Source: a virus
DNA length: 64,000 nucleotides
IMG/VR virus record: IMGVR_UViG_3300025684_000014
Coordinates: 32,001 to 96,000 of that record
Reading direction: 5' to 3' (one strand)
This document shows, piece by piece, positions 17,681-64,000 of the stretch. Numbering within the stretch: position 1 is the first letter of the stretch; each line of letters opens with the position of its first letter. The notes under the pieces were generated by a model. It was given only the letters and a program-made list of their open reading frames with translations, did not search any database and was not told the origin of the DNA. Made by a program: the position numbers and the translations under genes.

Positions 17681-17693
17681 AAAAGAGGTAAAA

Positions 17694-19377: not shown

Positions 19378-19378
19378 G

Positions 19379-23890: not shown

Positions 23891-24122
23891 TAACTATGTC
23901 TAAAGATATTGATCTGCAAGCTTTCGCCAACGACCTATATGATTTGTTAGATACTTATGATGTAGCGCTGACTAGCGCTCACTTTGCTAGACGATTACCT
24001 CAACGCAAAACAGGTGTAATGAGAATGCAACCTCTATTCTCTGCATTTTATGATGAGAATGGTCAAGTTTGGCTTATAGATGTTAATACTCGAGAAACTT
24101 ATTCTCCTAAAGATTTTGAACC

Positions 24123-24290
24123 ATGAGCATTTTAACTCCTAAACAAAATTATAAAGACAGACTCAAAACTTGTTTTGATTGCCCAAGTTACAATCCTACC
24201 CTTAAGCAATGTAAAGAATGCGGCTGTTTTCTTATTCTAAAAGCAGCTTTTGAATCAACTAAATGTCCCTTAGGTAGATGGAATGAATAA
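24123..24290 (+). CDS. Small Cys-rich protein (DUF6171-like)
   Basis: RLKTCFDC...CKECGC...KCPLGRW; manual translation, 55 aa. Confidence 0.65.
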   Translation: MSILTPKQNYKDRLKTCFDCPSYNPTLKQCKECGCFLILKAAFESTKCPLGRWNE

Positions 24291-24681
24291 TTTCTTTTTT
24301 TTTGTTTTAACTAATCCAGCAATTGTTTTACTCTTTCTTTCTCTTTTTACTATTATTTTTTTCCATATTTTTGTTTCAATTACAAAAGAAAAACAAGTTA
24401 ATTCATATATAAACTCTTCTAAATCTAAATATCTTGTAGTAGATGATGAAGGGTGGGAACTTTTTTGGGGATTTTCTTTAAGTTCAAGAAATTCTCATCA
24501 AGAAATTTTAGATACTTATTACTCTCGAGGTTATCAACTTCATAGTTTTACATTAAGAAACAATATGATTCCAAATGTTCCTTTAATAAAAAGCCTTTGT
24601 ATTTTTTTTATATATCTCTTAACTTTTGGTTATGTTAGTTATTATACAGGAAGTACTTTTATTTTTTACAAGGTTTAAGAA

Positions 24682-25140
24682 ATGAAGTTAAAACATATCC
24701 AGATGAGGATGCGTCAAGTTAAAGAGCTTACTAATATTTCTTCTTGTGAACGTCGTGGTGTAGCAGCTATTGCAGTCACAGAAAATAATATAGTGCTTTC
24801 TGAAGCTTATAATGGGTGGATTAGAGGAACAGAATCTTCTACCTGTAATCCTGAAGGACCTTGCCTTAGAGAAGGTTTAACTTCAGGGTCTAATATGGAA
24901 GTCGGCTGTATTCATGCAGAGCAAAATCTTATTATTAACGCCGCTAGAACGCAAACTAGCCTTGTTGAGTCTTGGGTTTTTCTTAGCACGTACCCTTGTA
25001 TGATGTGTGCTAAGCTTTTAGCGCAAGCAGGCATTTCTAGATTATTTGTATTAAAAAATTCTTACCCAATAGATGAAGGAATTACTTTCCTTCGAGACCA
25101 CGGAGTTATTTGTGTCGTCACAGATGTTACAAGTACTTGA
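24682..25140 (+). CDS. dCMP deaminase family protein
   Basis: HAEQN and PCMMCAK. Confidence 0.9.
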   Translation: MKLKHIQMRMRQVKELTNISSCERRGVAAIAVTENNIVLSEAYNGWIRGTESSTCNPEGPCLREGLTSGSNMEVGCIHAEQNLIINAARTQTSLVESWVFLSTYPCMMCAKLLAQAGISRLFVLKNSYPIDEGITFLRDHGVICVVTDVTST

Positions 25141-25355
25141 AGATTATTATTTTGATCCTAAACAAAACTATTATGTTCAAGCGTTTAAGCCAATTGGAGA
25201 TCAACCTGCCTATTATCATGCAGTAGGTTATCACTATGCAGTTAGACCTGAATCATATTTTATATTACCCCATAGGGATCTAACTAAGTTTGTTCTTTAT
25301 AAAGAGCGCACTGTACATCCAGATCAGCTTGAACTTTTTACTAAGGAACAACTCC

Positions 25356-25658
25356 ATGTCTGATATTTTTTACGACATGATTGGTAAGCCAATTCATGTT
25401 GGCGATTTATTTATTATCCCTGGAGGTAATCCTAGATTTGGCGGTCTCAAACTTCACCTTGGTCTTGTTGTCTCTAAGACTGACAAGACTATGACATGTG
25501 ATTATTTTGAGCTGCCTGAAGGAAAGCCTAAGGGTTCTGGAAGGAAAACACCTTCTAAAGTATTAAAAATTGACCCGCACTATTATTTAAACTATTGTAA
25601 GTTATTCGATGAGCTTCGCGAACGCGGTAATGCTCTTAAGATTAATACCAGGGATTAA
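25356..25658 (+). CDS. Hypothetical phage protein
   Basis: DMIGKPIHVGD N-terminus; RBS AAGGA. Confidence 0.6.
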   Translation: MSDIFYDMIGKPIHVGDLFIIPGGNPRFGGLKLHLGLVVSKTDKTMTCDYFELPEGKPKGSGRKTPSKVLKIDPHYYLNYCKLFDELRERGNALKINTRD

Positions 25659-25661
25659 CAA

Positions 25662-26174
25662 ATGAAATGGTTTACACCCTTCAATAAATATATTAACTGG
25701 CAGGAAATTGCCAATAACATCTCTTATATCGTTTCTCAAGGATACGAACATAAAGTAGTAATTGGCACTGACTCTCAACCTTTTAAAGAAGGTACAGTGT
25801 TTATTGTTGCGGTGTGTATCTTTTCTGAACATCCTGATTTTAAACAAACTTATTATTATGGTAAAGAACGCCAAGAAGCGTTCTTGCCTTTTTATCAACG
25901 ACTTCATCATGAAGTTCAATTGAGTTTAGATGTAGCAAATTCTCTTAGAGAATATACAGCTACTACCCAAAGAAAATTAAATATAGCTATTCATTTAGAT
26001 TTATCTGCTCAAGAAGCAAAGACAAAGTCTGGTAAGTATGCTTCTGGATTAATAAATCTTGTGAAAGCTTACGATTATCCTGACGTTGAAGTTAAGCCAA
26101 ACAGTTGGGCAGCTAGTTGTATAGCTGATAAGTACACTAAGAAACGTGAATTAGCACGTTTAGAAAGTAACTAG
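25662..26174 (+). CDS. RNase H-like YkuK/DUF458 family protein
   Basis: IGTDSQ, EVQLS, IHLD, KPNSWAASCIAD. Confidence 0.85.
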   Translation: MKWFTPFNKYINWQEIANNISYIVSQGYEHKVVIGTDSQPFKEGTVFIVAVCIFSEHPDFKQTYYYGKERQEAFLPFYQRLHHEVQLSLDVANSLREYTATTQRKLNIAIHLDLSAQEAKTKSGKYASGLINLVKAYDYPDVEVKPNSWAASCIADKYTKKRELARLESN

Positions 26175-26563
26175 TATGAATTTAGAACTGTTAAAAGAAA
26201 TATTAGCAGCCCTGTATTGGATTCTTATTTTTGTTGGTTTTGTTTATTTACTAATAACATATCCATTTCATGTTTTCTTTTTCCTTTTTATTCTTTGGAT
26301 TGTAAATTAATGATAGATATTCAATTACTTGTATTTAAGAACAGCATTGAGCATCTTAACCATACTTTTACTATGGGTAATAAAGCTTCTGCTTTAGCTT
26401 TTATTCAAAGAATGATTTCTGAATATATGCCAAAATCAAATTACACTCATAGGTATGACAACAGAAACGGTTCAGCCTTAGTTTCTGTAAAGTCATCTGA
26501 TTATTATGCTGAAATTTCAGTTCCCAGTGTTTATGTAAGTATAGAGGAGATAATTCAAACACA

Positions 26564-26935
26564 ATGGCAAAGCTACCCCAAGGGGCGATCGAACTCGCTA
26601 TAAGTCAGGCTAAGAAGAGTCCAATGTTACATCAACACGGAGCTGTTATTTGGAAAAATAACACTATCTTAGGCGCTGGATATAATTATCATAAAGCACC
26701 TCCAACTACAAGTTCTAGGAGGTACTCAATTCATAGTGAAAAAGATGCTCTTAATGGACTCCGACAAGACCAGATTTATGGCGCTTCAATGCTTGCCATA
26801 AGAGTAAGAAATGATGGAACTATAAGTTCTGGTGCACCATGTAAAGGGTGTACTAAATTGCTTACTAGAAAAGGTATTAAAAAAGTTTATTGGTACGATG
26901 ATAATGACAATCTTAATTGCACTTATTTAAACTAA
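26564..26935 (+). CDS. Cytidine/dCMP deaminase-like protein
   Basis: HSEKDAL and PCKGC. Confidence 0.85.
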   Translation: MAKLPQGAIELAISQAKKSPMLHQHGAVIWKNNTILGAGYNYHKAPPTTSSRRYSIHSEKDALNGLRQDQIYGASMLAIRVRNDGTISSGAPCKGCTKLLTRKGIKKVYWYDDNDNLNCTYLN

Positions 26936-27204
26936 TCATCTATCTCTGATTTTAAAAAAGTAAATTTAAATTTTAATTCATCTATTTTTGCAGATGATAA
27001 CTCTGATTTATTTTTTACTTCTTCAAAACTATTTTCTAAAGTTTCTAATCTTTCTAAGAAGTCTTCATTTACTTTATTTAATTCAAGTTTTTTTAAATAA
27101 ATCTTATAAACAAAATAAGCTATTACCATTAAAAATAAAATATAAATATTTTCTTCTGCTATTTTAATTAAAACCGGAGCTAATTCTTTGGTTTCTGTTT
27201 CCAT
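26932..27204 (-). CDS. Small membrane protein with coiled coil
   Basis: RBS AAGGAG; one TM segment. Confidence 0.6.
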   Translation of the reverse strand: METETKELAPVLIKIAEENIYILFLMVIAYFVYKIYLKKLELNKVNEDFLERLETLENSFEEVKNKSELSSAKIDELKFKFTFLKSEIDD

Positions 27205-27521
27205 AACAACTCCTTTTTTATTTATTATACTCTTTTCACATTAGGAAAAACAATGAACTTAGATTGGTTAATTTTAATTTTATTTATTATGACTGGCATA
27301 GTTTTTGGTATTTTTATAGAACATCACCATGAAAAAACTTATTACAATTGCACAGTTGTAGAAACAAATAAAAAATTACCTCTTCTTAGTAGGTACGATT
27401 TAATTCAATTAGAAAAACTTTATGCTCAAGAATTTAACCAATCTCTTGTTTGCGAAGATACTAAACTAACTGCACACCAAAAAAGAATTTATAACTCAAC
27501 CTTAACAATCGAGGCTAAATA

Positions 27522-28070
27522 ATGAACATTTTTACAAAAACACTTATTTCTTTTTCCTTTATGACATCTTTTGCTTTTGCAAACCCAACCGACACTTGTC
27601 AAAACAGTCCTCATCTTCAAGTAAGCCCCTTACATAAGAAGATTTCTTATGGAATGTCAAAGTCTCAAGTAAAGTCAAAGCTTGGTGTTTCTTTTGGCCC
27701 TATTTCTAATTTTGAAAGTGGCTTGGTTATTAGAAGTCCAAAAGCTCCTTACGATATGATTATTATGGCTTTTAGAGATGATCATCTTGTTGGCGTATTT
27801 TACAGCTATTCAAACGCTTTTCAAGATAGCGTAGGCGGACCTTTCAAAGCTGTTGTTCTTGTCCGCGATAAGTTCAAGGAAAAGTTTGGTCTTCCTGACG
27901 ATGCTACTAAGACAGACAAAGGTGTAAAGCTTACTTGGAAGCTAAACAAGGGCGCTGCTCTTGAGCTTACAGGTGAAGATCCTTATAAGGTTACTTACAC
28001 AGTTAAGTGCGAGCAACTTATTGATTCTCTTGACGCAAAAGCTCGAAGGGGAGCAAATCTTGGATTCTGA
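27522..28070 (+). CDS. Secreted hypothetical protein
   Basis: Signal peptide ending AFA; GMSKSQVKSKLG. Confidence 0.65.
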   Translation: MNIFTKTLISFSFMTSFAFANPTDTCQNSPHLQVSPLHKKISYGMSKSQVKSKLGVSFGPISNFESGLVIRSPKAPYDMIIMAFRDDHLVGVFYSYSNAFQDSVGGPFKAVVLVRDKFKEKFGLPDDATKTDKGVKLTWKLNKGAALELTGEDPYKVTYTVKCEQLIDSLDAKARRGANLGF

Positions 28071-28575
28071 TCCTCGCTTTTCTGTTTCTTTACTTAAAAA
28101 TATTTTTGTTACTGCTTTACAAGATGGTAGTAATTATTGGCTTATTATAAATAATTGGTGCTTAGAAGAACATATTGCTAATATTACTGATATAGAAGCA
28201 AATCCATTTACACAATATGAAGTAGATTTAAATGTTATTAAAAAAGGGTTTGAAATACTTTATGCACAAAAATCTGAATGGAGCAGTAAAAAGCTTTCTA
28301 ATATTTTAAATAAAAATTATGATGCAGAAGATGCAGATGTAATTTTACAGTACGGTTTATTCGGGGAGCTTCTTTATGGATAGTAAACATCCTCTTGTTG
28401 GTAAATCTGTAAAACTTTTTCCTAACGACACTTTTGCAAAGTATGGAGTAATAAATAAAATCGATGATCTTGGTTATTATATAGAGATTTATAGGTGCGA
28501 CAATAAGCAAGAATATAAGGTTGGTGATATAGCTTTTTTTAATCACGCTAACCAGTTGCATTTTATTATTTTAAA

Positions 28576-28905
28576 TTGAATACTAATTATATAATACCTT
28601 GCCTTGCTCTTTCTTTTGCTAATATTATTTTCTGGTATAAAGGTAATTCAAAAGCTATTTATGGTTTAGATTGGTCTCCATTCAAGTGGTGGCTTTATAC
28701 TAGTTTAATAACAAACTATATTACACTTCATGCTTGGTGGAAATTAATTGAATTAAGCAATGTTTGGAAAGCTGGTGTTACATGGGGGCTTTGCAGTCTT
28801 TTTGTTGACTTAATTTTAAATACCATTTATTTTGGTTTTAATTTAAACGGCATTATTGCTTTAGCATTCTGTGCTTGCTCTGCTTTTTTTGCACATAAAA
28901 CTTGA
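28576..28905 (+). CDS. Small multi-TM membrane protein
   Basis: Four hydrophobic segments. Confidence 0.6.
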   Translation: MNTNYIIPCLALSFANIIFWYKGNSKAIYGLDWSPFKWWLYTSLITNYITLHAWWKLIELSNVWKAGVTWGLCSLFVDLILNTIYFGFNLNGIIALAFCACSAFFAHKT

Positions 28906-28974
28906 CAAACATTTTTTAATGATTATAAATCATATCATAAGCAACAGCAGTTGCTTTCTTAGCTCTTTAACCTT

Positions 28975-29047
28975 GCTGGTGTAGCTCAGTTGGTAGAGCC
29001 CCTGTCTTGTAAACAGGTTGTCGGGAGTTCAAGTCTCTCCTCCAGCA
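28975..29047 (+). tRNA. tRNA-Thr(TGT)
   Basis: Cloverleaf; CCTGT-CTTGTAA-ACAGG; TTGACA at 28902 upstream. Confidence 0.93.
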
Positions 29048-29050
29048 CAT

Positions 29051-29123
29051 GCAAGAATAACTCAATTGGTAGAGTATCTGCCTTCCAAGCAGAATGTTGC
29101 GGGTTCGAGTCCCGTTTCTTGCT
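29051..29123 (+). tRNA. tRNA-Gly(TCC)
   Basis: Cloverleaf; TCTGC-CTTCCAA-GCAGA. Confidence 0.95.
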
Positions 29124-29327
29124 CTAATAGCTTAAACAACATTCATACTACTTTTAACCTTTTAGAAAGATTAATCAGTGGTTATGTGTGTCGTGGGTTC
29201 AAACGTTTAAGCTATTAATTGATGCAGCTTAGCGCCTCTTTTTTCCTACTTTCTTTTAACACTAATAATATAGATTAAGAGTTTGCAGGGTTGAGTGTGT
29301 AAAAGTGAACTGTTAAGTTGCATCTAT

Positions 29328-29400
29328 GCTCTCTTAGCTCAATGGTTAGAGCAATCGGCTGTTAACCGATAGGTTCTAGGTTCAAGTCCTAGAGAGAGCG
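29328..29400 (+). tRNA. tRNA-Asn(GTT)
   Basis: Cloverleaf; ATCGG-CTGTTAA-CCGAT. Confidence 0.95.
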
Positions 29401-52002: not shown

Positions 52003-52353
52003 ATGTCTGACAAACGACTATATTTAAATGATTATGTAACTATTTCTTATGACAATGCTGTTTCAAAAGGATGGCATGAACAAGAACGTACTATTGGCGA
52101 TCTTATTGCACTTATGCATTCTGAGCTTAGTGAAGCTTTAGAAGAATATAGAAATGGACATTCTCCTACAGAAGTTTATTTTAATGATTCTAATCCTGAT
52201 AAGCCAGAAGGTATTCCTGTTGAGTTAGCAGATTGCATTATTCGTATATTTGACTTTTGTGGAAAATATGGCATTAATTTAGAGCATGTCATAAACCAAA
52301 AAATTGAATATAATAAATCTAGGCCACATAGACATGGTGGCAAGAAAGTCTAA
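52003..52353 (+). CDS. MazG-like nucleotide pyrophosphohydrolase
   Basis: LMHSELSEALE...ELADCIIRIFD...NKSRPHRHG. Confidence 0.85.
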   Translation: MSDKRLYLNDYVTISYDNAVSKGWHEQERTIGDLIALMHSELSEALEEYRNGHSPTEVYFNDSNPDKPEGIPVELADCIIRIFDFCGKYGINLEHVINQKIEYNKSRPHRHGGKKV

Positions 52354-54113: not shown

Positions 54114-55420
54114 ATGGCAATAAAAAAAGTCACAGGTATTCCTGAAATAGACATGATAGCTTCTTCTCTTGCTAAGAAATTTGGCAAAGAAGATATCATG
54201 TCTATGGGACCTAAATATGAAAAAGTTAAAGCTATTAGCACTGGCTCTATTACTCTTGATTCCGTACTTGGTGTTGGCGGTTTACCTTCTGATCGTGTGG
54301 TCGAAATCTTTGGACCACCGTCAGCTGGCAAGACAAGTCTTTGTCTCCAAATCGTTAAATCATATGTAGATACTTATGGGTATGATCGTATTCCTGTGTT
54401 TGTAGACTTAGAGCGTACTACTGGTTTAGATCTTATTAAGAGTATGGGAATTGATCCTGAACGCATGTTGTTTGTTTATCCTGATACTGCCGAAGAAGCT
54501 TTGCAATTATGCCAAGACCTTGGTAATTCAGGAAAAGTCGGCGTAGTAATCTTTGATTCTATTGACGCTGCACAATCAGAGCGTGATACTAAGCGATTAA
54601 TGAACGAAACAGGTGTTGGCGATCTACCTAGGCTTTTGTCTAAGGCGCTTCGCGCTATTAGCAAAATTAGCGTAGATCAAGACTGTCTTTATTTGTTCAT
54701 CAATCAAGTTCGCATGAATATTGGTGTCATGTATGGAAATTAACTTCGGTTTCCCCTAGAGGTGACTCTAGGAAAAAAACCTTGTGAACCACTACCAGTG
54801 GGTGTCCATTATGGGCTAACGGTGAACCCCTCCATTCATTGGGCAATACCGTGCCAAGCCTCTTTATTAGAGGAAGGTGTAGAGACTATCGAAAACACAT
54901 CAAAAGATGGAAGTGAGTAGAGTAGGAAATGAGATTGGTACATTTCCCAAGCGCAAGGCTCTCTTTGATAAGAGATGAAGATATAGTCCACGCCACGAGT
55001 ATGGTAAACTTGTGGAGTTTCGTGCCAGAGACAACAAGCGGGGGGAATGCTATTCCATTTTACGCTTCTGTTAGGCTTAGGGTTAGTTCTAAACCTAGCT
55101 CTGACGCTCCAGATACTCTTGCTATGAAAGTAAAAGTAGTAAAGAACAAAGTAGCTCCTGCTCTTAATAAAACCGCAGAATTTGAATTTCAATGTGCCCG
55201 AGGCACAGATAAGCTTATGGATTTGATTGGTTGCGCTAAAGACCAAGGTCTTATGCGTTTTGCCGGTTCTGCTGTTAAGTGGTTTAATCCCGAAACAGGC
55301 GAGGAAGAAACTCTTTGTACTGGTGGTAAAGCTGGTGCAAAGGCTTACTTTGAAGAGAATCCTGAAGCTGCTGCAAATATGAAAAGAATGTGTCTCGAAG
55401 GACCAAAGCAATCTAGTTAA
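54114..55420 (+). CDS. recA: RecA recombinase, spliced (exons 54114-54740 and 55025-55420; 340 aa)
   Basis: GPPSAGKT, FDSIDA; splicing restores INQVRMNIGVMYGN|PETTSGGNA. Confidence 0.93.
54741..55024 (+). mobile_element. Group I intron in recA (284 nt, no ORF)
   Basis: P1 GGAAAT/GTTTCC with U-G at the splice site; R GTAGAGACTA, S GAAGATATAGTCC; ends in G. Confidence 0.92.
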
Positions 55421-55432: not shown

Positions 55433-56752
55433 ATGTGCAGTAACGATCATCACAATCATGATGACTCTCAAGCGCATCAAGAAACTGATGGTAAGTTTGT
55501 ACATTTTCATGTGCATACTGAGTATTCTCTTCTTGATGGTATTAACAAAGTTTCTCGATTACCAAAAAGAGCAAAAGAGCTCGGTATGCCTGCTGTGACT
55601 ATATCTGATCATGGCAACATATCAGGCAGTTACAAATTTTATAAAGAGTGTAAAAAGCATGACATCCAACCTATTATTGGTATGGAAGCTTATTACACAG
55701 TAAATGATCGCCATGCAAAAGAGCCTGATGAACTAGGTAAATCTTACTATCATTTGATCTTACTTGCTCAAAACAATACTGGTCTTCACAACCTTATGAA
55801 GCTTAGCTCTTATGCTTATACAGAAGGTATGTATCGTAAGCCACGTATTGATGACGCTCTTATTGCTGAATACTCAGAAGGCTTAATAGCTACTACCACA
55901 TGTCTTGGCAGTAGAGCTAGTCAGCTTATTCTTAACGGCGAAAAAAAAGCTGCTCAAAATCTCATACTCCATCATAAAGCAATGTTTAAAGATCGTTTTA
56001 TGGTTGAGCTTCAGCTTCACAAAGATGAAGAACAACAAACAGTTAATAAAGTACTCCAAGAAATTGCTTTAGACCATAATCTTCCAATGATTATCACAAA
56101 TGACTGCCATTATACCTATGAGCATGATAAAATGCATCACGAAGCTGCTCTTTGTATGCAAACAAAGACTACTTTAGCTGATGAAAATCGTTTTAGTTTT
56201 GGCGAAATTGACGTTCACTTTGCTTCTCATGATTGGATGTGGAAACAAGCTGAAGCTCAAAATATGCCTTATGATGTAATTTCAAATACTGCTCATTTGA
56301 CCAGTATGATCGATAGCGATTCTTATTTTATGGATAAGATGAATCGTTATCCAAAATTTCAAGAAATCCCTGAAGGTCTTACAAGCCCAGAACATTTAGC
56401 TATTGAAGCTCAACATGGACTTTATGCACGTTTTGGAGAAATGCCTCCACTTGAGTACAGAGAACGTTTATCAGAAGAATTAAATGTTATAAAGAGAATG
56501 GGTTTTTCTGATTACATGTTAATCGTTGCCCAATTTATGAATGGCGCTCGAGACTATGGTGTTATGCATGGTCCAGGTCGTGGTTCTGCTGCAGGAAGTC
56601 TTGTAGCTTGGGCATTACGAATTACTGAAGTCGATCCAATAAAATACGATTTGATGTTTTCTCGTTTTCTTAACGAGGGTCGTGCTGCGACTCCTCTTAT
56701 TTTTAACAAAGAAATGGCAGCAAAAGCTGACCAATACACTATGCCTTTTTAA
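55433..56752 (+). CDS. dnaE: DNA polymerase III alpha, N-terminal piece (PHP domain plus start of palm)
   Basis: HFHVHTEYSLLDG, SDHG, TNDCHY, GPGRGSAAGSLVAW, FSRFLNEGR. Confidence 0.93.
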   Translation: MCSNDHHNHDDSQAHQETDGKFVHFHVHTEYSLLDGINKVSRLPKRAKELGMPAVTISDHGNISGSYKFYKECKKHDIQPIIGMEAYYTVNDRHAKEPDELGKSYYHLILLAQNNTGLHNLMKLSSYAYTEGMYRKPRIDDALIAEYSEGLIATTTCLGSRASQLILNGEKKAAQNLILHHKAMFKDRFMVELQLHKDEEQQTVNKVLQEIALDHNLPMIITNDCHYTYEHDKMHHEAALCMQTKTTLADENRFSFGEIDVHFASHDWMWKQAEAQNMPYDVISNTAHLTSMIDSDSYFMDKMNRYPKFQEIPEGLTSPEHLAIEAQHGLYARFGEMPPLEYRERLSEELNVIKRMGFSDYMLIVAQFMNGARDYGVMHGPGRGSAAGSLVAWALRITEVDPIKYDLMFSRFLNEGRAATPLIFNKEMAAKADQYTMPF

Positions 56753-56761
56753 GGAAATAAC

Positions 56762-57001
56762 ATGACTAATCAACAACAAATTCAAGAGTATGCAACTAAA
56801 ATCCAAGCAACAGGCGATACTTATGCAACCTATCTCTACGCTATTCAAGACAAAAATGGACTTATTGTACGTCATAGAAACAATACTCATTACGCAACTA
56901 GGGCTGAAGCTCGTGCTGTTAGGCGCACTCTTCAGCGAAACGATATCAAAGTTGTTCGCGCTGAGTTTATTAATGTTTCTCGTTGGGAGACTGCTAAGTG
57001 A
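56762..57001 (+). CDS. Small basic hypothetical protein
   Basis: RBS AAGGA. Confidence 0.6.
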   Translation: MTNQQQIQEYATKIQATGDTYATYLYAIQDKNGLIVRHRNNTHYATRAEARAVRRTLQRNDIKVVRAEFINVSRWETAK

Positions 57002-57252
57002 AAGAGCATCTTATTCCAAAATTTTGGCAAGCTAATTTATCAGCAAAATCAAATACAGCTTCTTATTATACTGACGGTATTCACCTTTACTCAGGAAAAA
57101 AAGTCATTGGAACTACAAACGGCTATGGTCAGAAGTTTTTATACAATTATACAAAGTCTGACCAAGGGACATTTTTGTCTCCGCTAATTAGCAGACATGT
57201 AAATATGGCTAAATTTTATGCAGATGAATTTGTATCAACTAAAAAGGATTAA
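56998..57252 (+). CDS. Hypothetical protein
   Basis: GTGA overlap. Confidence 0.6.
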   Translation: MKEHLIPKFWQANLSAKSNTASYYTDGIHLYSGKKVIGTTNGYGQKFLYNYTKSDQGTFLSPLISRHVNMAKFYADEFVSTKKD

Positions 57253-57254
57253 TT

Positions 57255-57692
57255 ATGCTTAACGATCAATCTCCAGAAGCACATAATTTTTTAGAAAAAC
57301 ATGTCTACGTAAATGCTAATCCTTTAATCCAATATCTTCTTGAATCAACTAAAGAGCCTTTTGGTGAAGAATGGTATGAAGAGCTTTTTTGTCATTATGA
57401 CACTTCTTCAAATTCTGAACCAGAGCTTTATCATGAAACTCAACTTTATGAAGATTACAACCCATCTCTAGAAGGTGATTATTGTCCTGAAGATTTTGAA
57501 CCAGAACTTAGAGAACCTTATGAGTTTTATATTGTAAGTAATTATTTTGCTGAACAATTAAAAGCTCATAATGCTTTACTTACAAATCAATTTGGTTTTT
57601 GGATTTGGGGCAGAGAAACTACTGGACAAAGTATTATTTTAGATTATATCTTTCAAAAAATTTGGCAACAATTTAAAGAAAGAAATGCATAA
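57255..57692 (+). CDS. Hypothetical phage protein
   Basis: EPYEFYIVS...WIWGRETTGQSIILD. Confidence 0.7.
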   Translation: MLNDQSPEAHNFLEKHVYVNANPLIQYLLESTKEPFGEEWYEELFCHYDTSSNSEPELYHETQLYEDYNPSLEGDYCPEDFEPELREPYEFYIVSNYFAEQLKAHNALLTNQFGFWIWGRETTGQSIILDYIFQKIWQQFKERNA

Positions 57693-57701
57693 TAGGTTTA
57701 T

Positions 57702-58028
57702 ATGAGCACATATATTATTAAACTTGATCCTTATTCTCAATTATATAAAAAATTAAAATCTATTTTTAATAATAAAAATCATATTATTATTGCTGTAAAA
57801 AATACAGAGCCTCATGCAAGGTCTGCGGTTGAAGGCCTTCTGTATAATTTAAATAACGCATACGAACTTTCGTATAAAGAAAAAACTCTTACCGAAAAAG
57901 TATTTCAAATAATGGTCTCTTTAAACAAAGATTCTTTTACTGATTCGGAAATACAAGTTATAGAATCTTCTTTTAATTTTAAAATTAAAGATCAAAGTTT
58001 TTATACCAATCTTTTGTGGGGTGGTTAA
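57702..58028 (+). CDS. Hypothetical protein
   Basis: ORF in operon. Confidence 0.55.
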   Translation: MSTYIIKLDPYSQLYKKLKSIFNNKNHIIIAVKNTEPHARSAVEGLLYNLNNAYELSYKEKTLTEKVFQIMVSLNKDSFTDSEIQVIESSFNFKIKDQSFYTNLLWGG

Positions 58029-58093
58029 CACCCACCCTTACATCTTCTAACTGGTTGTAACTTCCATTTTTTTATTGTTTCAAAGGTATTCAT

Positions 58094-60984
58094 ATGTCTT
58101 CCTTTTTGAGAGAAGATGTTCTAAAAAAGATTGACCCTTATATAGATTTAGAAAGATATTCTCAAATAGATCCTGATTATTTCAAGCAAGAAGTAATTAT
58201 GGCTTCTTATGAAGATTTACACAGAATACAAGCTTCCTTATCTAACAATCTTTTTTATAAATCAAATCCTCACAACTCTATTTTACTTTATTTAACTAAA
58301 CTCACTGATGATTTTGATTTTAACAAAGCAAGATCAAATACTACTGGTGGCGCACCCCCCGATGTAGACCTGGATCATGATGCATTAGATCGTGAAAAGG
58401 CTATTCAATGGTGTATTGATTATTGGGGCAGAGAGCGTGTTGCAAATATTATTACTCACGGTACATTTAAACCAAAGAGTTTAGCTCGTTCTTATTATCG
58501 AATTACCGAAAAAGATCAATCTGATCTTAATGATTTATTAGCAATGATCCCTCCCCCTAAATACGGAAAAGAAGCTACTCTTGAAGAAATATTGGAACAA
58601 AACCCCAACATTTCAGAAGAGCAAAGGTATGCAGCATTTCTTGAATTTGCTGACCGTATAGAAGATATGGTTGCTAACTTTGGTATCCATGCTGCAGGTG
58701 TTATTATTTCTGATACTGAAATAAGTGATAACATTCCTATTTGGTCAAATAGTAAAGCAGATAGAATAACTCAATACGATAAAGATGAATGCGAAGATCT
58801 TGGTCTTCTTAAATTCGACTTTCTTGGTATTGATACTCTTTCTGTTATTAAAGAATGTACAGCACTTATTGAAGAACAAACAGGTGAAAAAATTGAACCT
58901 TACGCTATTCAAGATGGTGATGAACTAGCTTATAAATATCTCAATGAAGGATGTCTTACTGGAATTTTCCAAATGGAAACTTCTGGTACTGCCAAGAAAT
59001 TAATACTTGATATTAAACCTCAAAGTATTGAAGATTTAAGTGCTATTAGCGCCATCAATTGGTGGCCTTAAAAGCGGGTCAATTGCGGGAAACTCCTTAG
59101 AGCTTTAACTACTAAATCTTATTAGAGATAATAAGGTGGCCAAGCTAATCACTTGGGTATAGTAAAAATGTTGAAGATTGGACAATCCGCAGCCACGAAT
59201 CCTAATCCGATTCAGGTTCAGAGACTAGGTGAGCACACCAGCTTACATTGAGTAATTGATGTAATGCGACCCCGCTACTCTTTTATTAAGAGGAATGATA
59301 TAGTCCGTTTACTAGTGAAAGCTAGTAGTTAGGTCGAAAGGCCTAACTGTTTGACTTTATGAAGAACATCTTCTTCAGAATCGTCATATTTTATTATTAA
59401 TAAATTGATATTATTTTGTTCACAAAAATCTTTTTTAATTTGATCACGTTTTTTACAGAGCTCAAAATCTTCTTCTTTTTTATAAAAGAAATTTACATAT
59501 TCGTAATGCTGTCTACCGTTATACTCGACAACAAGATTCAACTCTTTAAAATACGCATCGCACCTAAGTTTGTATTTATATTTTAAGCCAAAAAACTTTT
59601 TTTGTTTTTCTGCTTTTAACCCAAAGAGCTCTTCAAGACGCTCTATCCATATATTTTCAGAACTATAAAAAGTTCTTGGGCTGTATTCTAACCCAAAAAA
59701 CTCACAACAGTTTTCGATATTTCCGTATCTTTTTAAAATTGTTACGCGGCTTATATTTGTAAATTTATCTATGTTTTCTGAACAAATATTATCTTTTATT
59801 TTTAATAATTCTTTTTTAATATCTTCGTCTGAAAAATTTAACTGCTTGTTATCATATTTATTTATCTCAGGATGACCTTCAAAAAACCCACCGAAACTAC
59901 CATAAAGTCTTCTATATACTTTGTGGTTTATTTTTCCATGTTTTTCTAGAAGTCCTTTAGAAAAAAATCCAAATTCTTTTTCTAATCGCTTAGCTTCTAA
60001 AAGACAATCTTCTTTTGAATGAACTTTTCTTTTACTCCCTTTAGTACTTGTTGTTATTTTTGTGGTATCTATCAGGTTGTGCATTTCTTTGAATGCGCCT
60101 AAAGATCCAAAATGAGTTCTAATACTTCTTCTAGTAAAGTCACAATTTTCTTCAACAAGAGGTACTGTTAAGCGCCCATGTACTTTATGAATAGCAAGCA
60201 ATTCTTTTTCACAATCAGATTTAGATATTCTATGATGATTCATACGAAACCTTTCTTTGAGTATACACCTATTATATACTCTTTGCTTAGGCTTGTCAAA
60301 CAATTCCTTCGCAATCGCCCCGGGCCGCTACAAGCTGGTCTTGATAAAACTTATATTACAAATAAATTAAACAACTCTCCGCCAGAAGATCTTCCAGAAA
60401 ATGTAGCTGAAATACTTAAAGCTTCTTATTGGACTCTTATATACCAAGAACAAATTATGAGGCTATTTACTGATCTTGCTGGTTTTACACAACAGGAAGC
60501 TGATGATGTTAGACGAGCAATGGGTAAGAAAAAGCTTTCTGTTCTTGAGAAATATAAAGAGCAATTCCTTAATGGCGCAACTTCTATTGGTGGTCTTATG
60601 GCTGATTACGCTGATAGTTTATGGAATGATATTTTGGGTTTTGCTGATTATTGCCTTGCAGGTGATACCGAAATATTACTTCCAATAGGTACTAAAAGAT
60701 CAACAAAAATTAAAGATATTATTAAAGATCAATATAATGGTTTTGCTTTATCTTATGATACTCAAGTAAATAGTTGGTCTGCAGAGTCCCCTTATTGTGC
60801 TCAACATATATCTCAATGGCATGATAAAGGAATAAAAGATGTATACAGATATGTTTTAGAAGATGGTTCTTATGTTGATTGTACTGAAAATCATAGTTTT
60901 TTGTTAAGTAATAAAAAATCTTATGCTGAAATAGATAAAATTTATACTAAAAAATTAGAAATATATTCTACAAAAGATGATTGA
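58094..60984 (+). CDS. dnaE: DNA polymerase III alpha, middle piece, spliced (exons 58094-59055 and 60312-60984; 544 aa), ending in a split N-intein
   Basis: PDVDLD, GIHAAGV, LLKFDFLG, GIFQME, SAI|NRPGP, YQEQIM, RRAMGKKK, GFADY then CLAGDTEI. Confidence 0.9.
59329..60243 (-). CDS. Intron-encoded endonuclease (homing-endonuclease-associated repeats plus DUF559/Vsr-like domain), antisense to the intron
   Basis: Repeated ...FGS/YGS/YGN units; LRCDAYF...VEYNGRQHY...RDQIK; ATG 60243 after GAAAGG. Confidence 0.8.
   Translation of the reverse strand: MNHHRISKSDCEKELLAIHKVHGRLTVPLVEENCDFTRRSIRTHFGSLGAFKEMHNLIDTTKITTSTKGSKRKVHSKEDCLLEAKRLEKEFGFFSKGLLEKHGKINHKVYRRLYGSFGGFFEGHPEINKYDNKQLNFSDEDIKKELLKIKDNICSENIDKFTNISRVTILKRYGNIENCCEFFGLEYSPRTFYSSENIWIERLEELFGLKAEKQKKFFGLKYKYKLRCDAYFKELNLVVEYNGRQHYEYVNFFYKKEEDFELCKKRDQIKKDFCEQNNINLLIIKYDDSEEDVLHKVKQLGLST
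60271..60299 (-). promoter_or_regulatory. Consensus sigma70 promoter driving the antisense endonuclease
   Basis: TTGACA-17 nt-TATAAT on the minus strand. Confidence 0.85.
60652..60984 (+). other. Split intein, N-terminal half
   Basis: CLAGDTEIL...QWHDKGIKDVYRYVLEDGSYVDCTENHSFL...IDKIYTKKLEI then stop; no C-terminal HN motif. Confidence 0.9.
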
Positions 60985-61037
60985 AAATTTATACATACAG
61001 ATATTAATATAAAATATTAAAAAGAAAGAGGGGGAAT

Positions 61038-61409
61038 ATGGCTACTCATGCAGAGAATTCATTAAAAGGAACCTTGATTAGAGACGCTAATATTAACGTT
61101 AATATGGAGCAAAACTCTTATCTTGGTTCTGTAGGTTCTTCTATTACTAATATAATTCCTTCAGACCATGACCTGTCTAGTCAGATTGATGGTGTGACTT
61201 CAGAATTTATATTAGACCCACCAGTAGCTTATGGAACTGAATATTTATTTGAGCTTTATTTAGATGGTCAAAAACTTTATAGATCTATGGTTCCTCAAGC
61301 TCCAGACTTTTATTTAAATCCAAATAGAGTACGTGTAGTGCTAGCACCTGATTTCGAGCTTTCTCCGGAATCAGTTTTAATAGCTAAATACGTGGATCAA
61401 CTTCAATAA
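61038..61409 (+). CDS. Probable virion structural protein
   Basis: DLSSQIDGVTSEFIL...LYLDGQK beta-rich module; precedes the tail fibre. Confidence 0.55.
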   Translation: MATHAENSLKGTLIRDANINVNMEQNSYLGSVGSSITNIIPSDHDLSSQIDGVTSEFILDPPVAYGTEYLFELYLDGQKLYRSMVPQAPDFYLNPNRVRVVLAPDFELSPESVLIAKYVDQLQ

Positions 61410-61420
61410 GGGTTTTATGA

Positions 61421-64000
61421 ATGTCTAATACTATAAATAGAAGAACTAAATTTAGGCCAGGATCTCTTTCAACTGAACTTTTAGCTGATAATGGTGCTTT
61501 AGTTTGGGAACAAGGCAGAGTGAGTGCTCAACCTTTACTTGATGCTGATTCCCAAACTAATACTCGTATTGATAATATTTATTGGAAAGATCCAGTAAAT
61601 TCTGTCGCTCAGTTAGAAGATCTAGATCCAGATACTTTAAGACCAGGCGACACTTATTATTCTATAGCCGAACAACAAGTTTATGTTTTTTCTGGCCCCA
61701 TTCCTTCTCTTCCTCAAAATGTTGATACTTACCAACCACCTACTTGGACTGCAGCAAATAGAACAGAATATTTTTTTCCTGTTGCTGTTGGTTTAGATAA
61801 AAACTCATTAGCAACAAAAAGCTATGTCGATTCTGAAATATTAAATCTTATTGATAATGCACCTGGAGTACTCGATACTATTAGAGAACTCGCAGAAGCA
61901 ATTAATAATGATGAAAATTTTGCAGACAATGTATTTGCTCAAATTACAGGTTTGCAAAATACAAAAGCAGATAAAACTTCTGTTTATACTACTACAGAAA
62001 TTGATCAAATTGAATCAAACCTTTTAGATATCATAAATGCAATTGATGCTAAAAATCGTAGGGTTGTTGACTATGTTATTGGCTCGCAACCTTATGCTGA
62101 CAATGTAAATCTTCAAGATCAACTAATTCTCAACAAGCTTCCCACTTCTGAAGAACCACTTACTTTTCTTTTGAGGTATGGGGCTCAAGCAACAGATCCT
62201 ACCATAAATATAAATAATCCAGGCTATATATTTATAGCACCTACTGAAGAAACAGTAGTTTTCCCAGCAGATATAAATATTGAACTTACTGGTACTACCC
62301 AAGATGACTTTATAGTTTTTAAAGACATAACTTTAAGTTCAATTACAGTACCTATTACTTCTTCTCCATTTACTTTACTTCTTGATAATGTAACTTTTAA
62401 TAATGAATTACTTATTTATTCTAATATAAATGTCATTATTCAAGATTCTCAATTTATAGATGTTACTACTTTAGATTTTTCTAATAGTTCTGTAATAAAA
62501 ATAACTAATTCTAATTTAAAAAATGATAATAGAATTTTAGAGCTTTCAAACAATGCTTTAGTTACTATAAGTAACTCTCATATCACTGGCGAAATAGTTT
62601 TAAGATCTTCTTCAAAACTATACTCTAATGATGTATCTTATGAAATTTTAACAGATACTCCAGTAATTGTCGCAAACGAAACAAATACATTTGTTTCACT
62701 AAAAGATATAGAGTTCCTTACTCCATTAAACTATTCTTCTAATTATATAGATGGTTTAGGCGAACTTTATTGTAATTTAAATGTATATGATTCTTCTTTA
62801 AATCCTATTTTAAATCAAGATCAATCATATACTAAACAAATAAAAGTTGGCTCTACATTAAATAATAATGAAGGTATGCAAGTAAAGCATTATTACCTTC
62901 CAAACGGTTATGAGCATTTCTTTTATAATGATGAACAAGCAAGAGATACAATTGCTAATTTTATTTCAGCTCATACTTTAAATCATTCAGCTGTATCTTG
63001 GGTACATGACGATCAAAACGATACTTTTGCTTTAGAATTAAATTTATCTTCTTCTGATTTATCTGATGAAGCAGATATTGCTTTTAAAAGTAAAACAAAT
63101 ATTTTTACTCAACGAAATGTATTTAATGATGTACACATAACATCTGCTACTATCAATAATGCTGATATAGATATTGCTTCTATTGATTTATTAACTGTAC
63201 CTACTCAATTACAAACAGATAGCTCTAACAAAGCAGCTTCTACTCAATATGTTAGAGAAGCTTTTTCTAAACTCGAAGCTGATATAGAAGATTTAGAGTT
63301 AACAGAATTAAAAGATGTATCTATAACTTCTCCAGCTGAATCTCACGTGGTAGTTTATAATCCATTAGCTGCTACTATTTCACAAAACTGGACCAATAGA
63401 CAATTAAATTCATCAGACCTTTCTAATGATTCTCAACTCATTAAAGCTGGGGATTCTGTATTTAGACTTTCTGATATAGCTAGACCTACTTTGTTGTGGC
63501 AAAGTGGAGCAGCTGGCCCCAACAGCGGCTATTCTTCTACTAATCAAACTTTACGATGGAATGGTGACCAGTATGATATTCAAGGCACCATTACAAAGGG
63601 TAATGGTCAATGGATAGTTGATTTAGCCAACAACTCTTTATTAAGAGCCTCTTTTGAACCAACTACAGTTTCCGATTACGATGGTTGGGGTAAAATTGCT
63701 TTAGCTGATAATGAAGAGGTTAGAGACGGTTCAAATTCGACAAAAGCAGTTACTCCTTCTTTGTTGCATGCAAATTATGCTAGCAATACTTTTAGTAATT
63801 TAGGCAATTATGAAGTAGCTAGAGCTAATTTAGGTTTTTCTAATTTACCTCATTATTATAAATATGATTTAGACACTGCAACAATTGAAAATGTTGCTTA
63901 TACATATCCTGGCTACGATTCTGTTTTTTATGAACAAGTTTCTGCAGGATTTAATACTTTTGATTTATCAGAAGGAAAATTTTATTTCTTATCTTTAGAT
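61421..64000 (+). CDS. Tail fibre protein (partial, runs off the window)
   Basis: Spot translation from ATG 61421: LATKSYVD, LIDNAPGVLDTIRELAEAINNDENFA, PTQLQTDSSNKAASTQYV, LTELKDVSITSP. Confidence 0.8.
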   Translation, partial: MSNTINRRTKFRPGSLSTELLADNGALVWEQGRVSAQPLLDADSQTNTRIDNIYWKDPVNSVAQLEDLDPDTLRPGDTYYSIAEQQVYVFSGPIPSLPQNVDTYQPPTWTAANRTEYFFPVAVGLDKNSLATKSYVDSEILNLIDNAPGVLDTIRELAEAINNDENFADNVFAQITGLQNTKADKTSVYTTTEIDQIESNLLDIINAIDAKNRRVVDYVIGSQPYADNVNLQDQLILNKLPTSEEPLTFLLRYGAQATDPTININNPGYIFIAPTEETVVFPADINIELTGTTQDDFIVFKDITLSSITVPITSSPFTLLLDNVTFNNELLIYSNINVIIQDSQFIDVTTLDFSNSSVIKITNSNLKNDNRILELSNNALVTISNSHITGEIVLRSSSKLYSNDVSYEILTDTPVIVANETNTFVSLKDIEFLTPLNYSSNYIDGLGELYCNLNVYDSSLNPILNQDQSYTKQIKVGSTLNNNEGMQVKHYYLPNGYEHFFYNDEQARDTIANFISAHTLNHSAVSWVHDDQNDTFALELNLSSSDLSDEADIAFKSKTNIFTQRNVFNDVHITSATINNADIDIASIDLLTVPTQLQTDSSNKAASTQYVREAFSKLEADIEDLELTELKDVSITSPAESHVVVYNPLAATISQNWTNRQLNSSDLSNDSQLIKAGDSVFRLSDIARPTLLWQSGAAGPNSGYSSTNQTLRWNGDQYDIQGTITKGNGQWIVDLANNSLLRASFEPTTVSDYDGWGKIALADNEEVRDGSNSTKAVTPSLLHANYASNTFSNLGNYEVARANLGFSNLPHYYKYDLDTATIENVAYTYPGYDSVFYEQVSAGFNTFDLSEGKFYFLSLD

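What the first reader, a model, noticed from the sequence alone, without database searches (positions are those of the whole stretch)
55433..60984. DnaE assembled by three mechanisms: gene fission, RNA splicing and protein trans-splicing
Seen: piece 1 ends just after RFLNEGR, four unrelated ORFs intervene, and piece 2 resumes before PDVDLD with no intein at that break. Piece 2 contains a group I intron and ends in an N-intein after GFADY. The C-intein and the FNKSH-containing C-terminus are not in the window. Established: cyanobacterial DnaE is split by an intein at the equivalent FAEY|CFNKSH site, and this N-intein closely parallels that family (QWHDxG, LEDG, TxxHxF). Inference: at least three genes make one replicase. 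This is a new natural split intein of possible biotechnological use and a clue to how the cyanobacterial allele spread.
Basis: partly seen in the sequence, partly recalled or inferred. Interest (0 to 1): 0.72.

Follow-up and report, generated by a model that had tools for sequence, protein, structure and literature searches.

The report
Phage replicase gene in three pieces
An uncultured marine phage encodes its replicative DNA polymerase (DnaE) as three separate genes that must be put together by RNA splicing, protein trans-splicing and plain subunit association, and much of this layout is shared by many related uncultured phages.

Summary
The window lies in a 123,667-bp virus record. DnaE is encoded as P1 (55433-56752: PHP plus first part of the palm), P2 (58094-60984: rest of palm and fingers, ending in an N-intein) and P3 (C-intein of 38 aa, then CFNKAH, HhH and OB), which lies 12.2 kb downstream, outside the window.

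- **Intron:** P2 is interrupted by a 1,256-nt group I intron (59056-60311). It carries a homing-endonuclease gene on the opposite strand.
- **Intein:** both halves match solved cyanobacterial DnaE split inteins. The insertion site (Y|CFNK) and the split point are the same.
- **P1|P2 break:** it has no intein. P1 keeps the GRGS motif and P2 the catalytic aspartates. Each piece keeps a decayed copy of the other's edge, and these edges are predicted to dock.
- **Spread:** the fission is present in 20 of 21 close IMG/VR relatives and the split intein in 14 of those 20. None of the 20 has the intron at this site. 117 of the best 120 P3-like protein clusters start with a C-intein.

No splicing or binding was measured. 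My literature searches found no report of this arrangement. I rate it a new variant of known kinds, of moderate to high interest.

The parts
55433..56752 (+). dnaE piece 1 (P1, 439 aa): PHP domain plus the first part of the palm with the GRGS motif. It ends in a conserved 22-aa tail, AATPLIFNKEMAAKADQYTMPF.
   Evidence: Pfam PHP 4.4e-50 and DNA_pol3_alpha positions 2-102 of 260. 118 of the best 120 near-length homologues hold RF[LIVM][NSDT] followed by a 16-59 aa tail and stop. Invariant G382 R383 G384 S385 in alignment A1.
56762..58028 (+). Four small ORFs (79, 84, 145 and 108 aa) between P1 and P2, function unknown. They are variable cargo of the gap.
   Evidence: No Pfam hit and one weak PHROG hit. 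Homologues of orfA-D are present in some relatives only. Gaps range from 251 nt to 4.5 kb.
58094..59055 (+). dnaE piece 2, exon 1: helical N-extension of about 85 aa, then the catalytic strand PPDVDLD, the rest of the palm including KFDFLG, and the first half of the fingers.
   Evidence: Pfam DNA_pol3_alpha 96-260 and finger 1-73. Invariant D90, D92, D94 and D242 in A3. AlphaFold2 block pLDDT 81-97 for residues 1-80.
59056..60311 (+). Group I intron, 1,256 nt. The catalytic core is about 59056-59327; the remainder carries the antisense endonuclease gene. 5' splice site after U59055, omega-G at 60311.
   Evidence: Rfam RF00028 66.8 bits, whole model. P1 pairs GCCAU (59051-55) with GUGGC (59062-66), with U.G at the splice site. 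P10 pairs AUUG (59058-61) with CAAU (60312-15), read. All 20 relatives with P2 are uninterrupted here.
59329..60243 (-). Homing-endonuclease-like gene inside the intron on the opposite strand (304 aa from the first ATG; the ORF is open to 60303).
   Evidence: PHROG 9084 'homing endonuclease' 1.7e-14. 29% identity end to end (E 1e-30) to the antisense ORF in the same-site intron of L078, which has 3 PF18780 repeats at 2e-23.
60271..60299 (-). Perfect sigma-70-type consensus TTGACA-17-TATAAT just upstream of the endonuclease ATG.
   Evidence: 12 of 12 matches. This is a consensus match only; function is not shown.
60312..60651 (+). dnaE piece 2, exon 2: second half of the fingers, ending ...GFADY.
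   Evidence: Pfam finger 74-164. The join restores ...SAISAINRPGPLQ, which matches ...ISALNRPGP in the ORFs of L015 and L023 read in full; P2a and P2b lie 3 nt apart in all 20 relatives.
60652..60984 (+). N-intein (110 aa, CLAGDTEIL...TENH...) and stop codon.
   Evidence: phmmer hits to Ssp and Npu DnaE inteins, 4.2e-10 and below. Cys1 and TxxH are present here and in the 15 relatives printed.

Best explanation
The phage replicase alpha subunit (C-family DnaE) is made from three genes.

1. P1 and P2 are translated separately and associate without a covalent bond. The active site is composite: P1 brings the PHP domain and the GRGS motif, and P2 brings the three catalytic carboxylates. The join is stabilised by a clasp formed by P1's conserved tail (..GRAATPLIF..) and P2's helical N-extension of about 85 aa. 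Both look like decayed copies of the neighbouring piece's edge, which points to fission by partial duplication.
2. The P2 transcript must lose a 1,256-nt group I intron to restore the finger domain. The intron is a recent mobile insertion. It carries its own antisense homing-endonuclease gene.
3. P2 ends in an N-intein. P3, 12.2 kb downstream behind a cassette of tail-fibre-like genes, starts with the matching 38-aa C-intein. The halves dock and trans-splice GFADY to CFNKAH, giving an 816-aa chain.

The working enzyme is then P1 (439 aa) plus spliced P2-P3.

Shown here: the anatomy, the conservation and the motifs. Inferred: RNA splicing, trans-splicing and P1-P2 binding.
For: **Domains.** The pieces add up to exactly one DnaE: PHP and palm 2-102; palm 96-260 and finger 1-73; finger 74-164; HHH_6 at 7.7e-32. 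No other DNA_pol3_alpha match exists in the record.

**Intein.**
- The site is Y|CFNK.
- Cys1, TENH, terminal HN and Cys+1 are present.
- PDB hits to Ssp/Npu DnaE inteins for both halves.
- 117 of the best 120 P3-like clusters begin with a 35-38 aa C-intein ending N|CFNK.
- 14 of 20 close relatives with P2 end it in an N-intein.

**Intron.**
- Rfam 66.8 bits against a gathering score of 50, whole model.
- P1 with U.G, P10 and omega-G place the splice sites so that the join is in frame. It is uninterrupted in all 20 relatives with P2, and has the same length as the two read in full.
- The same core plus antisense endonuclease architecture sits at the same site in the distant, unsplit DnaE of L078.

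**Fission.**
- 20 of 21 close loci have P2 after a gap of 251 nt to 4.5 kb.
- Among the best 120 longer hits, none with more than 46% identity is a P1-P2 fusion.
- The P1 tail aligns to the canonical junction profile through 'slPDi'.
- The P2 extension NSilLYvtGiTD aligns to canonical GSLv.Y.lgIT at P 1.7e-4.

**Complex prediction of P1 with P2 exon 1.**
- ipSAE 0.92, against 0.00 for the best of 3 controls. That mark was reached by 58 of 80 solved complexes and 2 of 110 mismatched pairs.
- The runs share at least 94% of contacts, and the partner's pLDDT is at least 85.
- Contacts include P1 417-436 with P2 28-65 and 79-96.
- Much of this pass may come from likeness to solved one-chain DnaE structures.

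**Assembly.** Independent contigs confirm the stops and junctions.
Against: - No RNA or protein data exist. No RNA run holds the stretch, so splicing of either kind is untested.
- About 985 nt with an antisense gene lie between the intron core and the 3' splice site, which is an unusual geometry.
- P3 lies behind 12 kb of tail-fibre-like genes, so co-expression with P1 and P2 is not assured.
- The record is estimated at 79% complete, so a second, whole dnaE elsewhere cannot be excluded.
- Statistical support for the duplication is modest: hhalign probability 49% for 16 columns, and the whole-extension alignment to P1 is weak (P 0.021).
- The complex score can pass from memory of solved DnaE structures.
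Confidence: 0.8

Rival explanations
1. The intron no longer splices. P2 exon 1 (terminated at the in-intron TAA at 59069-59071) and exon 2 (started at ATG 60178) are separate polypeptides, so DnaE is made of four pieces.
For: An ATG-started ORF at 60178-60984 overlaps exon 2. The long distance from the intron core to the 3' splice site and the antisense gene are unusual. No RNA evidence exists.
Against: The Rfam match covers the whole model, well above the gathering score. P1, P10 and omega-G are intact. The intron is kept in a roughly 5% diverged strain. The 45 aa upstream of NRPGP in the ATG-started ORF are antisense to the endonuclease gene's start and have no DnaE counterpart. The break would cut the finger domain, which is continuous in all 20 relatives.
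Confidence: 0.08
2. The P1|P2 break is joined covalently by something not recognised here: an atypical split intein with a short N part, or an undetected intron or RNA trans-splicing.
For: The window's P2 reads ...ARSN|TTGG, which superficially resembles an intein end with Thr+1. Atypical split inteins with N parts of about 15-37 aa exist (recalled).
Against: - Tail plus extension come to about 108 aa, which is too small for a HINT domain.
- There is no intein Pfam hit on P1 or on P2 exon 1.
- The putative terminal Asn is D or E in most relatives, and position 1 is A or G with no nucleophile.
- No RNA family at E<=1 apart from a chance-level microRNA-model match lies in 56750-58100.
- The gap holds conserved, separately started ORFs of variable number.
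Confidence: 0.04
3. The pieces are decaying remnants of a dnaE that the phage no longer needs, because replication uses the host's enzyme or another polymerase.
For: The gene is crowded with mobile elements. The record is incomplete.
Against: All pieces are open. Catalytic and metal-binding residues are invariant across 22-27 diverse sequences. The three-piece layout is kept over P1 identities from 80% down to about 60%, and intein catalytic residues are kept in 117 of 120 clusters.
Confidence: 0.03

Closest known systems
Cyanobacterial split DnaE inteins (Ssp, Npu; DnaE-n and DnaE-c on separate loci)
   Same: Same host protein, same insertion site (...[AE]Y|CFNK[AS]H), same split point (N part about 100-115 aa, C part 35-38 aa) and same catalytic residues. 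The C-intein has a median 52.6% identity to 70 cyanobacterial ones, and both halves hit solved structures.
   Different: The carrier is a phage, not a cyanobacterium. The N-intein is only 25-33% identical to 5 cyanobacterial ones, and the C-extein only about 27%. The halves lie 2.2 to over 12 kb apart on one strand of one genome. The same gene has a second, intein-free break.
'Fractured genes' of Dassa et al. 2009 (PMC2677866; passages read): split-intein halves flanking a free-standing homing-endonuclease gene in GOS metagenomes, including three DnaE loci
   Same: Environmental, probably phage, DnaE genes with split inteins. Vsr-like endonucleases are associated with them.
   Different: The paper states that its three DnaE sites differ from the cyanobacterial site; here the site is the cyanobacterial one. 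Here no endonuclease hit lies between the halves, only tail-fibre-like genes. The endonuclease here sits in an intron. The paper's supplementary table of sites could not be seen.
Genes in pieces without inteins in phages (Aeromonas phage Aeh1 nrdA split by mobE; T4 genes 39/60). Recalled, not read here.
   Same: An essential enzyme is encoded as two polypeptides that reassemble non-covalently, with foreign ORFs in the gap.
   Different: Here the cut passes through the polymerase active-site region with an overlap of about 45 residues. No endonuclease was recognised in the gap. The cut recurs in at least 5 places on the dnaE tree.
Contiguous DnaE inteins of cultured phages (Rhodococcus phage Weasels2, NC_041887.1) and of L026, L038 and L048
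   Same: Phage dnaE, with related intein sequence (CL..DT..., ...HN).
   Different: They are one-piece inteins inserted 4 residues further on (FNK|SH, +1 Ser), not at Y|CFNK.
Split inteins in phage B-family DNA polymerases (Aes123 PolB1, CP21 PolB1; passages of PMC12707363 read)
   Same: A phage replicative polymerase assembled by natural protein trans-splicing.
   Different: A different polymerase family and a different intein family, and cysteine-less.

Membership tests
DnaE split intein allele (cyanobacterial type) | Inserted in DnaE between ...[AE]Y and CFNK[AS]H | tested here: met
   GFADY|CLAG... and ...AHN|CFNKAH. The junction is identical in 80 cyanobacterial loci.
DnaE split intein allele (cyanobacterial type) | Two genes: N part of about 100-123 aa and C part of about 35-38 aa | tested here: met
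   110 aa and 38 aa, 12.2 kb apart.
DnaE split intein allele (cyanobacterial type) | Catalytic residues Cys1, block B TxxH, terminal Asn and Cys+1 | tested here: met
   C1, TENH and HN|C read. N|C is present in 117 of 120 clusters.
DnaE split intein allele (cyanobacterial type) | Significant sequence similarity to solved Ssp/Npu DnaE inteins | tested here: met
   N half 4.2e-10 (1zde); C half 3.4e-10 (5ol7).
DnaE split intein allele (cyanobacterial type) | Protein trans-splicing activity | not testable with these tools
   Needs co-expression of P2 and P3.
Group I intron (Rfam RF00028) | Covariance-model score at or above the gathering threshold | tested here: met
   66.8 bits against 50, model positions 1-253.
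Group I intron (Rfam RF00028) | U.G pair at the 5' splice site in P1, G before the 3' splice site, and a guide sequence that also pairs with the 3' exon (P10) | tested here: met
   Read. The P1 hairpin appears in the MFE fold.
Group I intron (Rfam RF00028) | Splicing in RNA | not testable with these tools
   No RNA run was available to lay on it.
Intein at the P1|P2 break | HINT-size insert with a conserved nucleophile at position 1 and a conserved terminal Asn before C/S/T | tested here: not met
   About 108 aa in all. Position 1 is A or G. The 'Asn' is D, E or N among relatives. No intein Pfam hit.
Fractured gene sensu Dassa 2009 | Free-standing homing-endonuclease gene between the two intein halves | tested here: not met
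   The 10 ORFs between the halves give tail-fibre or unknown PHROG hits and no endonuclease. Only structural-looking ORFs are seen in L015 and L023.
Homing endonuclease with HNH_repeat (PF18780) DNA-binding repeats and a Vsr-like nuclease | Family profile match above cut-off; nuclease motif | tested here: inconclusive
   PHROG 9084 at 1.7e-14. PF18780 scores only 16.6 bits in the window's copy (cut-off 26) but 82.9 bits in its L078 homologue. No PDB sequence hit. The catalytic motif was not examined.
C-family DNA polymerase alpha subunit (DnaE) | PHP, palm with GS motif and three carboxylates, fingers, HhH, OB | tested here: met
   Pfam hits across P1, P2 and P3. The P2 model aligns to Taq, E. 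coli and Mtb Pol III alpha at Z 7.4-14.0 (rmsd 2.4-5.5 A, 226-277 residues aligned).

The most novel reading that the evidence does not exclude
The P1|P2 break may be a recurrent, heritable way of cutting a C-family polymerase through its active-site region without an intein. A partial duplication of about 45 residues leaves each half with a decayed copy of the other's edge, and these copies have become a docking clasp. This 'split module' has arisen or spread at least five times among phage dnaE genes. Together with the split intein it turns dnaE into a landing pad where small accessory genes and tail-fibre cassettes accumulate. The phage split intein and the cyanobacterial one would then descend from one mobile ancestor that crossed between phages and cyanobacteria.
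Probability: 0.35. Interest if true: 0.8.

Novelty: new variant of a known kind. Interest (0 to 1): 0.66.

Why it matters
- **A pool of new split inteins.** The family offers over a hundred 90%-identity clusters of natural split inteins orthologous to Npu/Ssp DnaE, the most widely used trans-splicing tools, but with much more diverged N halves. They are candidates for orthogonal or faster pairs.
- **Distribution of the cyanobacterial allele.** The Dassa 2009 passages I read place split DnaE at this site only in cyanobacteria. Here the site and split point also occur widely in phages, which bears on how that allele arose and moved.
- **A polymerase cut through its active site.** The intein-free cut separates the GS motif from the catalytic aspartates. 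The enzyme therefore tolerates being divided within its active-site region, and this gives a natural system for studying how a split enzyme evolves a docking interface.
- **Many mobile-element solutions in one gene family.** Across this family I saw a fission, group I introns at two or more sites, a split intein and, in sister strains, a LAGLIDADG intein in the PHP motif.

Tried and rejected
- **RNA evidence:** no RNA holder was listed for 58094-60984, so splicing could not be examined.
- **Intron-less allele:** laying 4 DNA runs showed no joint.
- **GenBank phages:** there is no close relative. The DNA search gave only 41-44-nt matches to Cellulophaga phages. Protein searches gave under 60% identity for all 1,034, 646 and 1,430 records.
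- **Atypical split intein at P1|P2:** rejected (see rivals).
- **Hidden RNA element in the P1-P2 gap:** only a chance-level microRNA-model match at E<=1.
- **Whole N-extension as a copy of P1 319-407:** weak (hhalign P 0.021, probability 2%). Only the 16-column helix is supported. Structure alignment reaches model residues 22-26 in 4 of 16 DnaE/PolC rows, but ranges give end points only.
- **Direction of intein transfer:** a tree of N and C halves joined (13 rows) has no supported deep branch.
- **Endonuclease against PDB by sequence:** nothing relevant.
- **Literature:** searches listed no paper whose title or abstract start reports a phage split DnaE intein at the cyanobacterial site or an intein-free DnaE fission. 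Passages were read in four papers. The listing, which was aimed at antisense endonuclease genes in phage introns, was not read through. The library is partial, and the supplements of Dassa 2009 were closed.

Full report
**What and where.** The window is bases 32001-96000 of a 123,667-bp linear IMG/VR virus record, estimated 79% complete. GC is about 25-43% in the 50-64 kb part profiled. No GenBank phage among 50,697 records is close. The DNA search gave only 41-44-nt matches to Cellulophaga phages. Protein searches gave under 60% identity throughout. Near-identical DNA occurs in marine, estuary and other aquatic metagenomes from 17 studies.

**Checking the observation.**
- P1 (55433-56752, 439 aa) carries PHP (4.4e-50) and DNA_pol3_alpha positions 2-102 of 260. 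It stops 22 aa after RFLNEGR.
- Four tightly packed + strand ORFs follow (56762-58028) with no family assignment.
- P2 starts at 58094. DNA_pol3_alpha 96-260 and finger 1-73 are in exon 1, and finger 74-164 plus an intein hit are in the frame that ends at 60984.
- Rfam finds a full-length group I intron at 59005-59327 (66.8 bits, gathering score 50).

**Are the stops real?** Contigs of four other runs were laid on 55433-61100. One X2 contig covers 55533-59105 with 2 differences. It bridges P1's stop, the four ORFs, P2's start and the 5' splice site. Another X2 contig covers 60311-61100 with 2 differences, neither at the stop. A roughly 5% diverged strain in X3 covers the intron, the antisense gene, the 3' splice site and the place of the stop, but most of its differences were not displayed. 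No contig skips the intron.

**The missing partner.** A search of the record with HHH_6 found one match at C1:105455-105718 (7.7e-32). The ORF there (C1:105164-106426, 420 aa, + strand) begins with a 38-aa C-intein ending ...LVAHN, followed by CFNKAHSVSYS. It lies 12.2 kb beyond the N-intein stop. The only other DNA_pol3_alpha matches in the record are P1 and P2.

**The split intein.**
- The N half (110 aa from CLAGDTEIL, with TENH) hits Ssp and Npu DnaE intein structures at E 4.2e-10 and below. The C half hits them at 3.4e-10 and below.
- The insertion site (GFADY|C...N|CFNK) is the cyanobacterial one. All 80 listed loci hold a cyanobacterial-type C-intein; most titles name cyanobacteria (a few say 'uncultured bacterium', and one an Acetobacteraceae MAG).
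- The window's C-intein has a median 52.6% identity (39-61%) to 70 of them, while the C-extein has only about 27%.
- The N-intein is 25-33% identical to five cyanobacterial N-inteins. It is 31-55% identical to phage relatives' N-inteins. The adjacent 112 aa of N-extein are 37-43% identical to cyanobacteria.
- A tree of both halves (13 rows) has no supported deep branch, so no direction of transfer can be read.
- One-piece inteins in cultured Rhodococcus phages and in L026, L038 and L048 lie four residues further on (FNK|SH), which is a different site.

**How common.**
- 308 near-length proteins match P3 at E<=1e-5. Of the best 120 clusters, 117 begin with a 35-38 aa C-intein ending N|CFNK. The 3 misses are shorter proteins (335-350 aa) that start inside the extein.
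- Of the best 120 near-length matches to P1, 118 hold RF[LIVM][NSDT] followed by a tail of 16-59 aa and a stop. The tail is conserved as GR[AG]A.P.IF.. and ends in ..PF or in Cys/His-rich stretches.
- 80 IMG/VR loci were fetched with a P1 alignment. Of the 21 with at least 50% P1 identity, 20 have P2 after a gap of 251 nt to 4.5 kb. L022's locus ends 3.9 kb after P1 without P2.
- 14 of those 20 end P2 in an N-intein. In 6 of those 14, P3 lies 2.2-5.2 kb downstream. In the other 8 it is not within the 1.7-8.2 kb that the locus still holds. In 6 of the 20, P2 runs on into the P3 part without an intein.
- None of the 20 has an intron at the window's site.
- Among the best 120 longer proteins matching P1, 115 are one-piece or partial DnaEs of at most 46% identity. 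The other 5 are P1 homologues that carry an intein inside P1. No close fused P1-P2 form was seen.

**The intron.**
- The exon 1 end GCCAU (59051-59055) pairs with GUGGC (59062-59066), placing U.G at the splice site. AUUG (59058-59061) pairs with the first four bases of exon 2, CAAU (60312-60315). G60311 precedes the 3' splice site. The P1 hairpin appears in the minimum-energy fold (z -3.5).
- The join gives ...SAISAINRPGPLQ. This has the same length as the uninterrupted ORFs of L015 and L023 read in full, and P2a and P2b lie 3 nt apart in all 20 relatives.
- After the core (to about 59327), the intron holds an ORF on the minus strand (59329-60303; first ATG at 60243). It matches PHROG 9084 'homing endonuclease' (1.7e-14).
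- A 12-of-12 TTGACA-17-TATAAT consensus sits just upstream of that ATG.
- L078, an unsplit DnaE only 33% identical in P1, has the same arrangement at the same site. It holds a group I core (28.1 bits, E 8.9e-5) followed by an antisense ORF. That ORF is 29% identical end to end (E 1e-30) and carries three PF18780 repeats.
- This points to a mobile intron acquired recently by the window's lineage. Other relatives (L024, L029) have group I introns at a second dnaE site.

**The intein-free break.**
- GRGS (G382-S385) is invariant in P1, while D90, D92, D94 and D242 are invariant in P2. Structure alignment maps P2 86-320 onto E. coli Pol III alpha 398-636. This fits the recalled catalytic residues D401, D403 and D555. 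Neither piece should therefore be active alone.
- A profile of the junction from 47 one-piece phage DnaEs aligns P1's tail through the start of the catalytic strand ('slPDi' against 'AATPLI').
- P2's extension NSilLYvtGiTDefdf aligns to the canonical helix GSLv.Y.lgIT.vDPi (P 1.7e-4, probability 49%).
- Each piece thus seems to keep a decayed copy of about 45 residues that are intact in the other, as expected after fission by partial duplication.
- The extension is not junk. It is predicted as helices with block pLDDT 81-97 for residues 1-80.
- In the complex prediction, ipSAE was 0.92 against 0.00 for the best of 3 controls. That mark was reached by 58 of 80 solved complexes and 2 of 110 mismatched pairs. 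The runs agree in at least 94% of contacts and the partner's pLDDT is at least 85. P1 residues 417-436 touch P2 28-65 and 79-96. Much of the pass may reflect likeness to solved single-chain DnaE structures. The tail-extension contacts have no such precedent, and they are a model's opinion only.
- An intein here is rejected. The insert is too small (about 108 aa), there is no nucleophile at position 1, the would-be terminal Asn is not conserved, and there is no Pfam hit.

**Evolution.**
- On both a P1 tree and a P2 tree, the main clade (SH-aLRT 100 on each; 20 rows on the P1 tree, 18 on the P2 tree) is split throughout. The same cut also appears in L042 (sister of unsplit L038), L047 (sister of unsplit L027), L057 with L067, and L056.
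- The extensions of these scattered forms share letters (NS....Y..GITDEKP) that are absent from their own P1 helices. Independent duplication and spread of one module therefore both remain open.
- The split intein is patchy within the clade. L019 and L020, which lack it, are nested among carriers.
- Between the intein halves, the window's record holds 10 ORFs. Among them are a 1,244-aa and a 484-aa protein with tail-fibre PHROG hits, and none has an endonuclease hit. Relatives hold other structural-looking ORFs there.

**Literature.** Dassa et al. 2009 (passages read) report three metagenomic DnaE loci with split inteins at sites stated to differ from the cyanobacterial one, each with a free-standing endonuclease. 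Their supplementary site table was not available. Searches listed no paper whose title or abstract start describes phage split DnaE inteins at the cyanobacterial site or an intein-free DnaE fission. I did not read through the listing from then on antisense endonuclease genes in phage introns. The library is partial.

**Verdict.** Each mechanism is known on its own. Three things are new:
- their combination in one gene;
- a large phage family of split inteins at the 'cyanobacterial' site;
- a recurrent intein-free cut through the palm with an evolved docking overlap.

Nothing was measured in RNA or protein.

Noticed in passing
window 54114-55420 (intron about 54731-55015): recA is also interrupted. 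Pfam RecA positions 3-198 and 197-260 lie in two ORFs about 185 nt apart, and Rfam's group I intron model matches the gap over its whole length at 30.7 bits (E 6e-5, below the gathering score). This is a probable ORF-less group I intron.
   Followed up: partly
P0242-P0246 (relatives of window 55433-56752): Five P1-like clusters of 800-817 aa carry a one-piece intein with a LAGLIDADG domain. In P0242 it sits in the PHP motif IITND|CHY. P0242 is 100% identical to the window's P1 before the site and 94% after it. The window's own site is empty.
   Followed up: partly
L024 16166-16494; L029 14978-15214: Relatives without the split intein have group I introns (62.2 and 62.9 bits) at a second dnaE site, within the finger region about 35-40 residues before the intein site.
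   Followed up: no
L025 15748-16288: In this relative the P2 ORF stops just after ..GGSPPDCDM, and similarity resumes about 280 nt later. A further insertion may sit inside the catalytic DxDxD strand.
   Followed up: no
window 61038-64000 and G000:C1:93000-105100 (L212): The 12 kb between the two intein halves is a cassette of tail-fibre-like genes (1,244 aa and 484 aa with tail-fibre PHROG hits). It sits inside what is otherwise a replication module. P3 is followed by an ORF that, by eye, looks like a metallophosphoesterase.
   Followed up: partly
window 56750-56830: orfA is in the same frame as P1. The DNA_pol3_alpha profile alignment from the genome search ran through P1's TAA to model position 149. 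orfA alone has no Pfam hit. This is either over-extension or a relic of the old continuation.
   Followed up: no
window 55433-55500 and tails of P1 relatives: P1 starts with a His-rich stretch (CSNDHHNHDD). Many relatives end P1 in Cys/His-rich tails (..CSHxH..CTHKHKCSCPHKH) instead of ..PF, which may be metal sites.
   Followed up: no
window 17073-29400: Seven tRNA genes lie in two groups.
   Followed up: no
window 52003-52353: A 116-aa ORF that, by eye, resembles MazG-type nucleotide pyrophosphohydrolases lies upstream of the recA-dnaE block. No family search was run on it.
   Followed up: no
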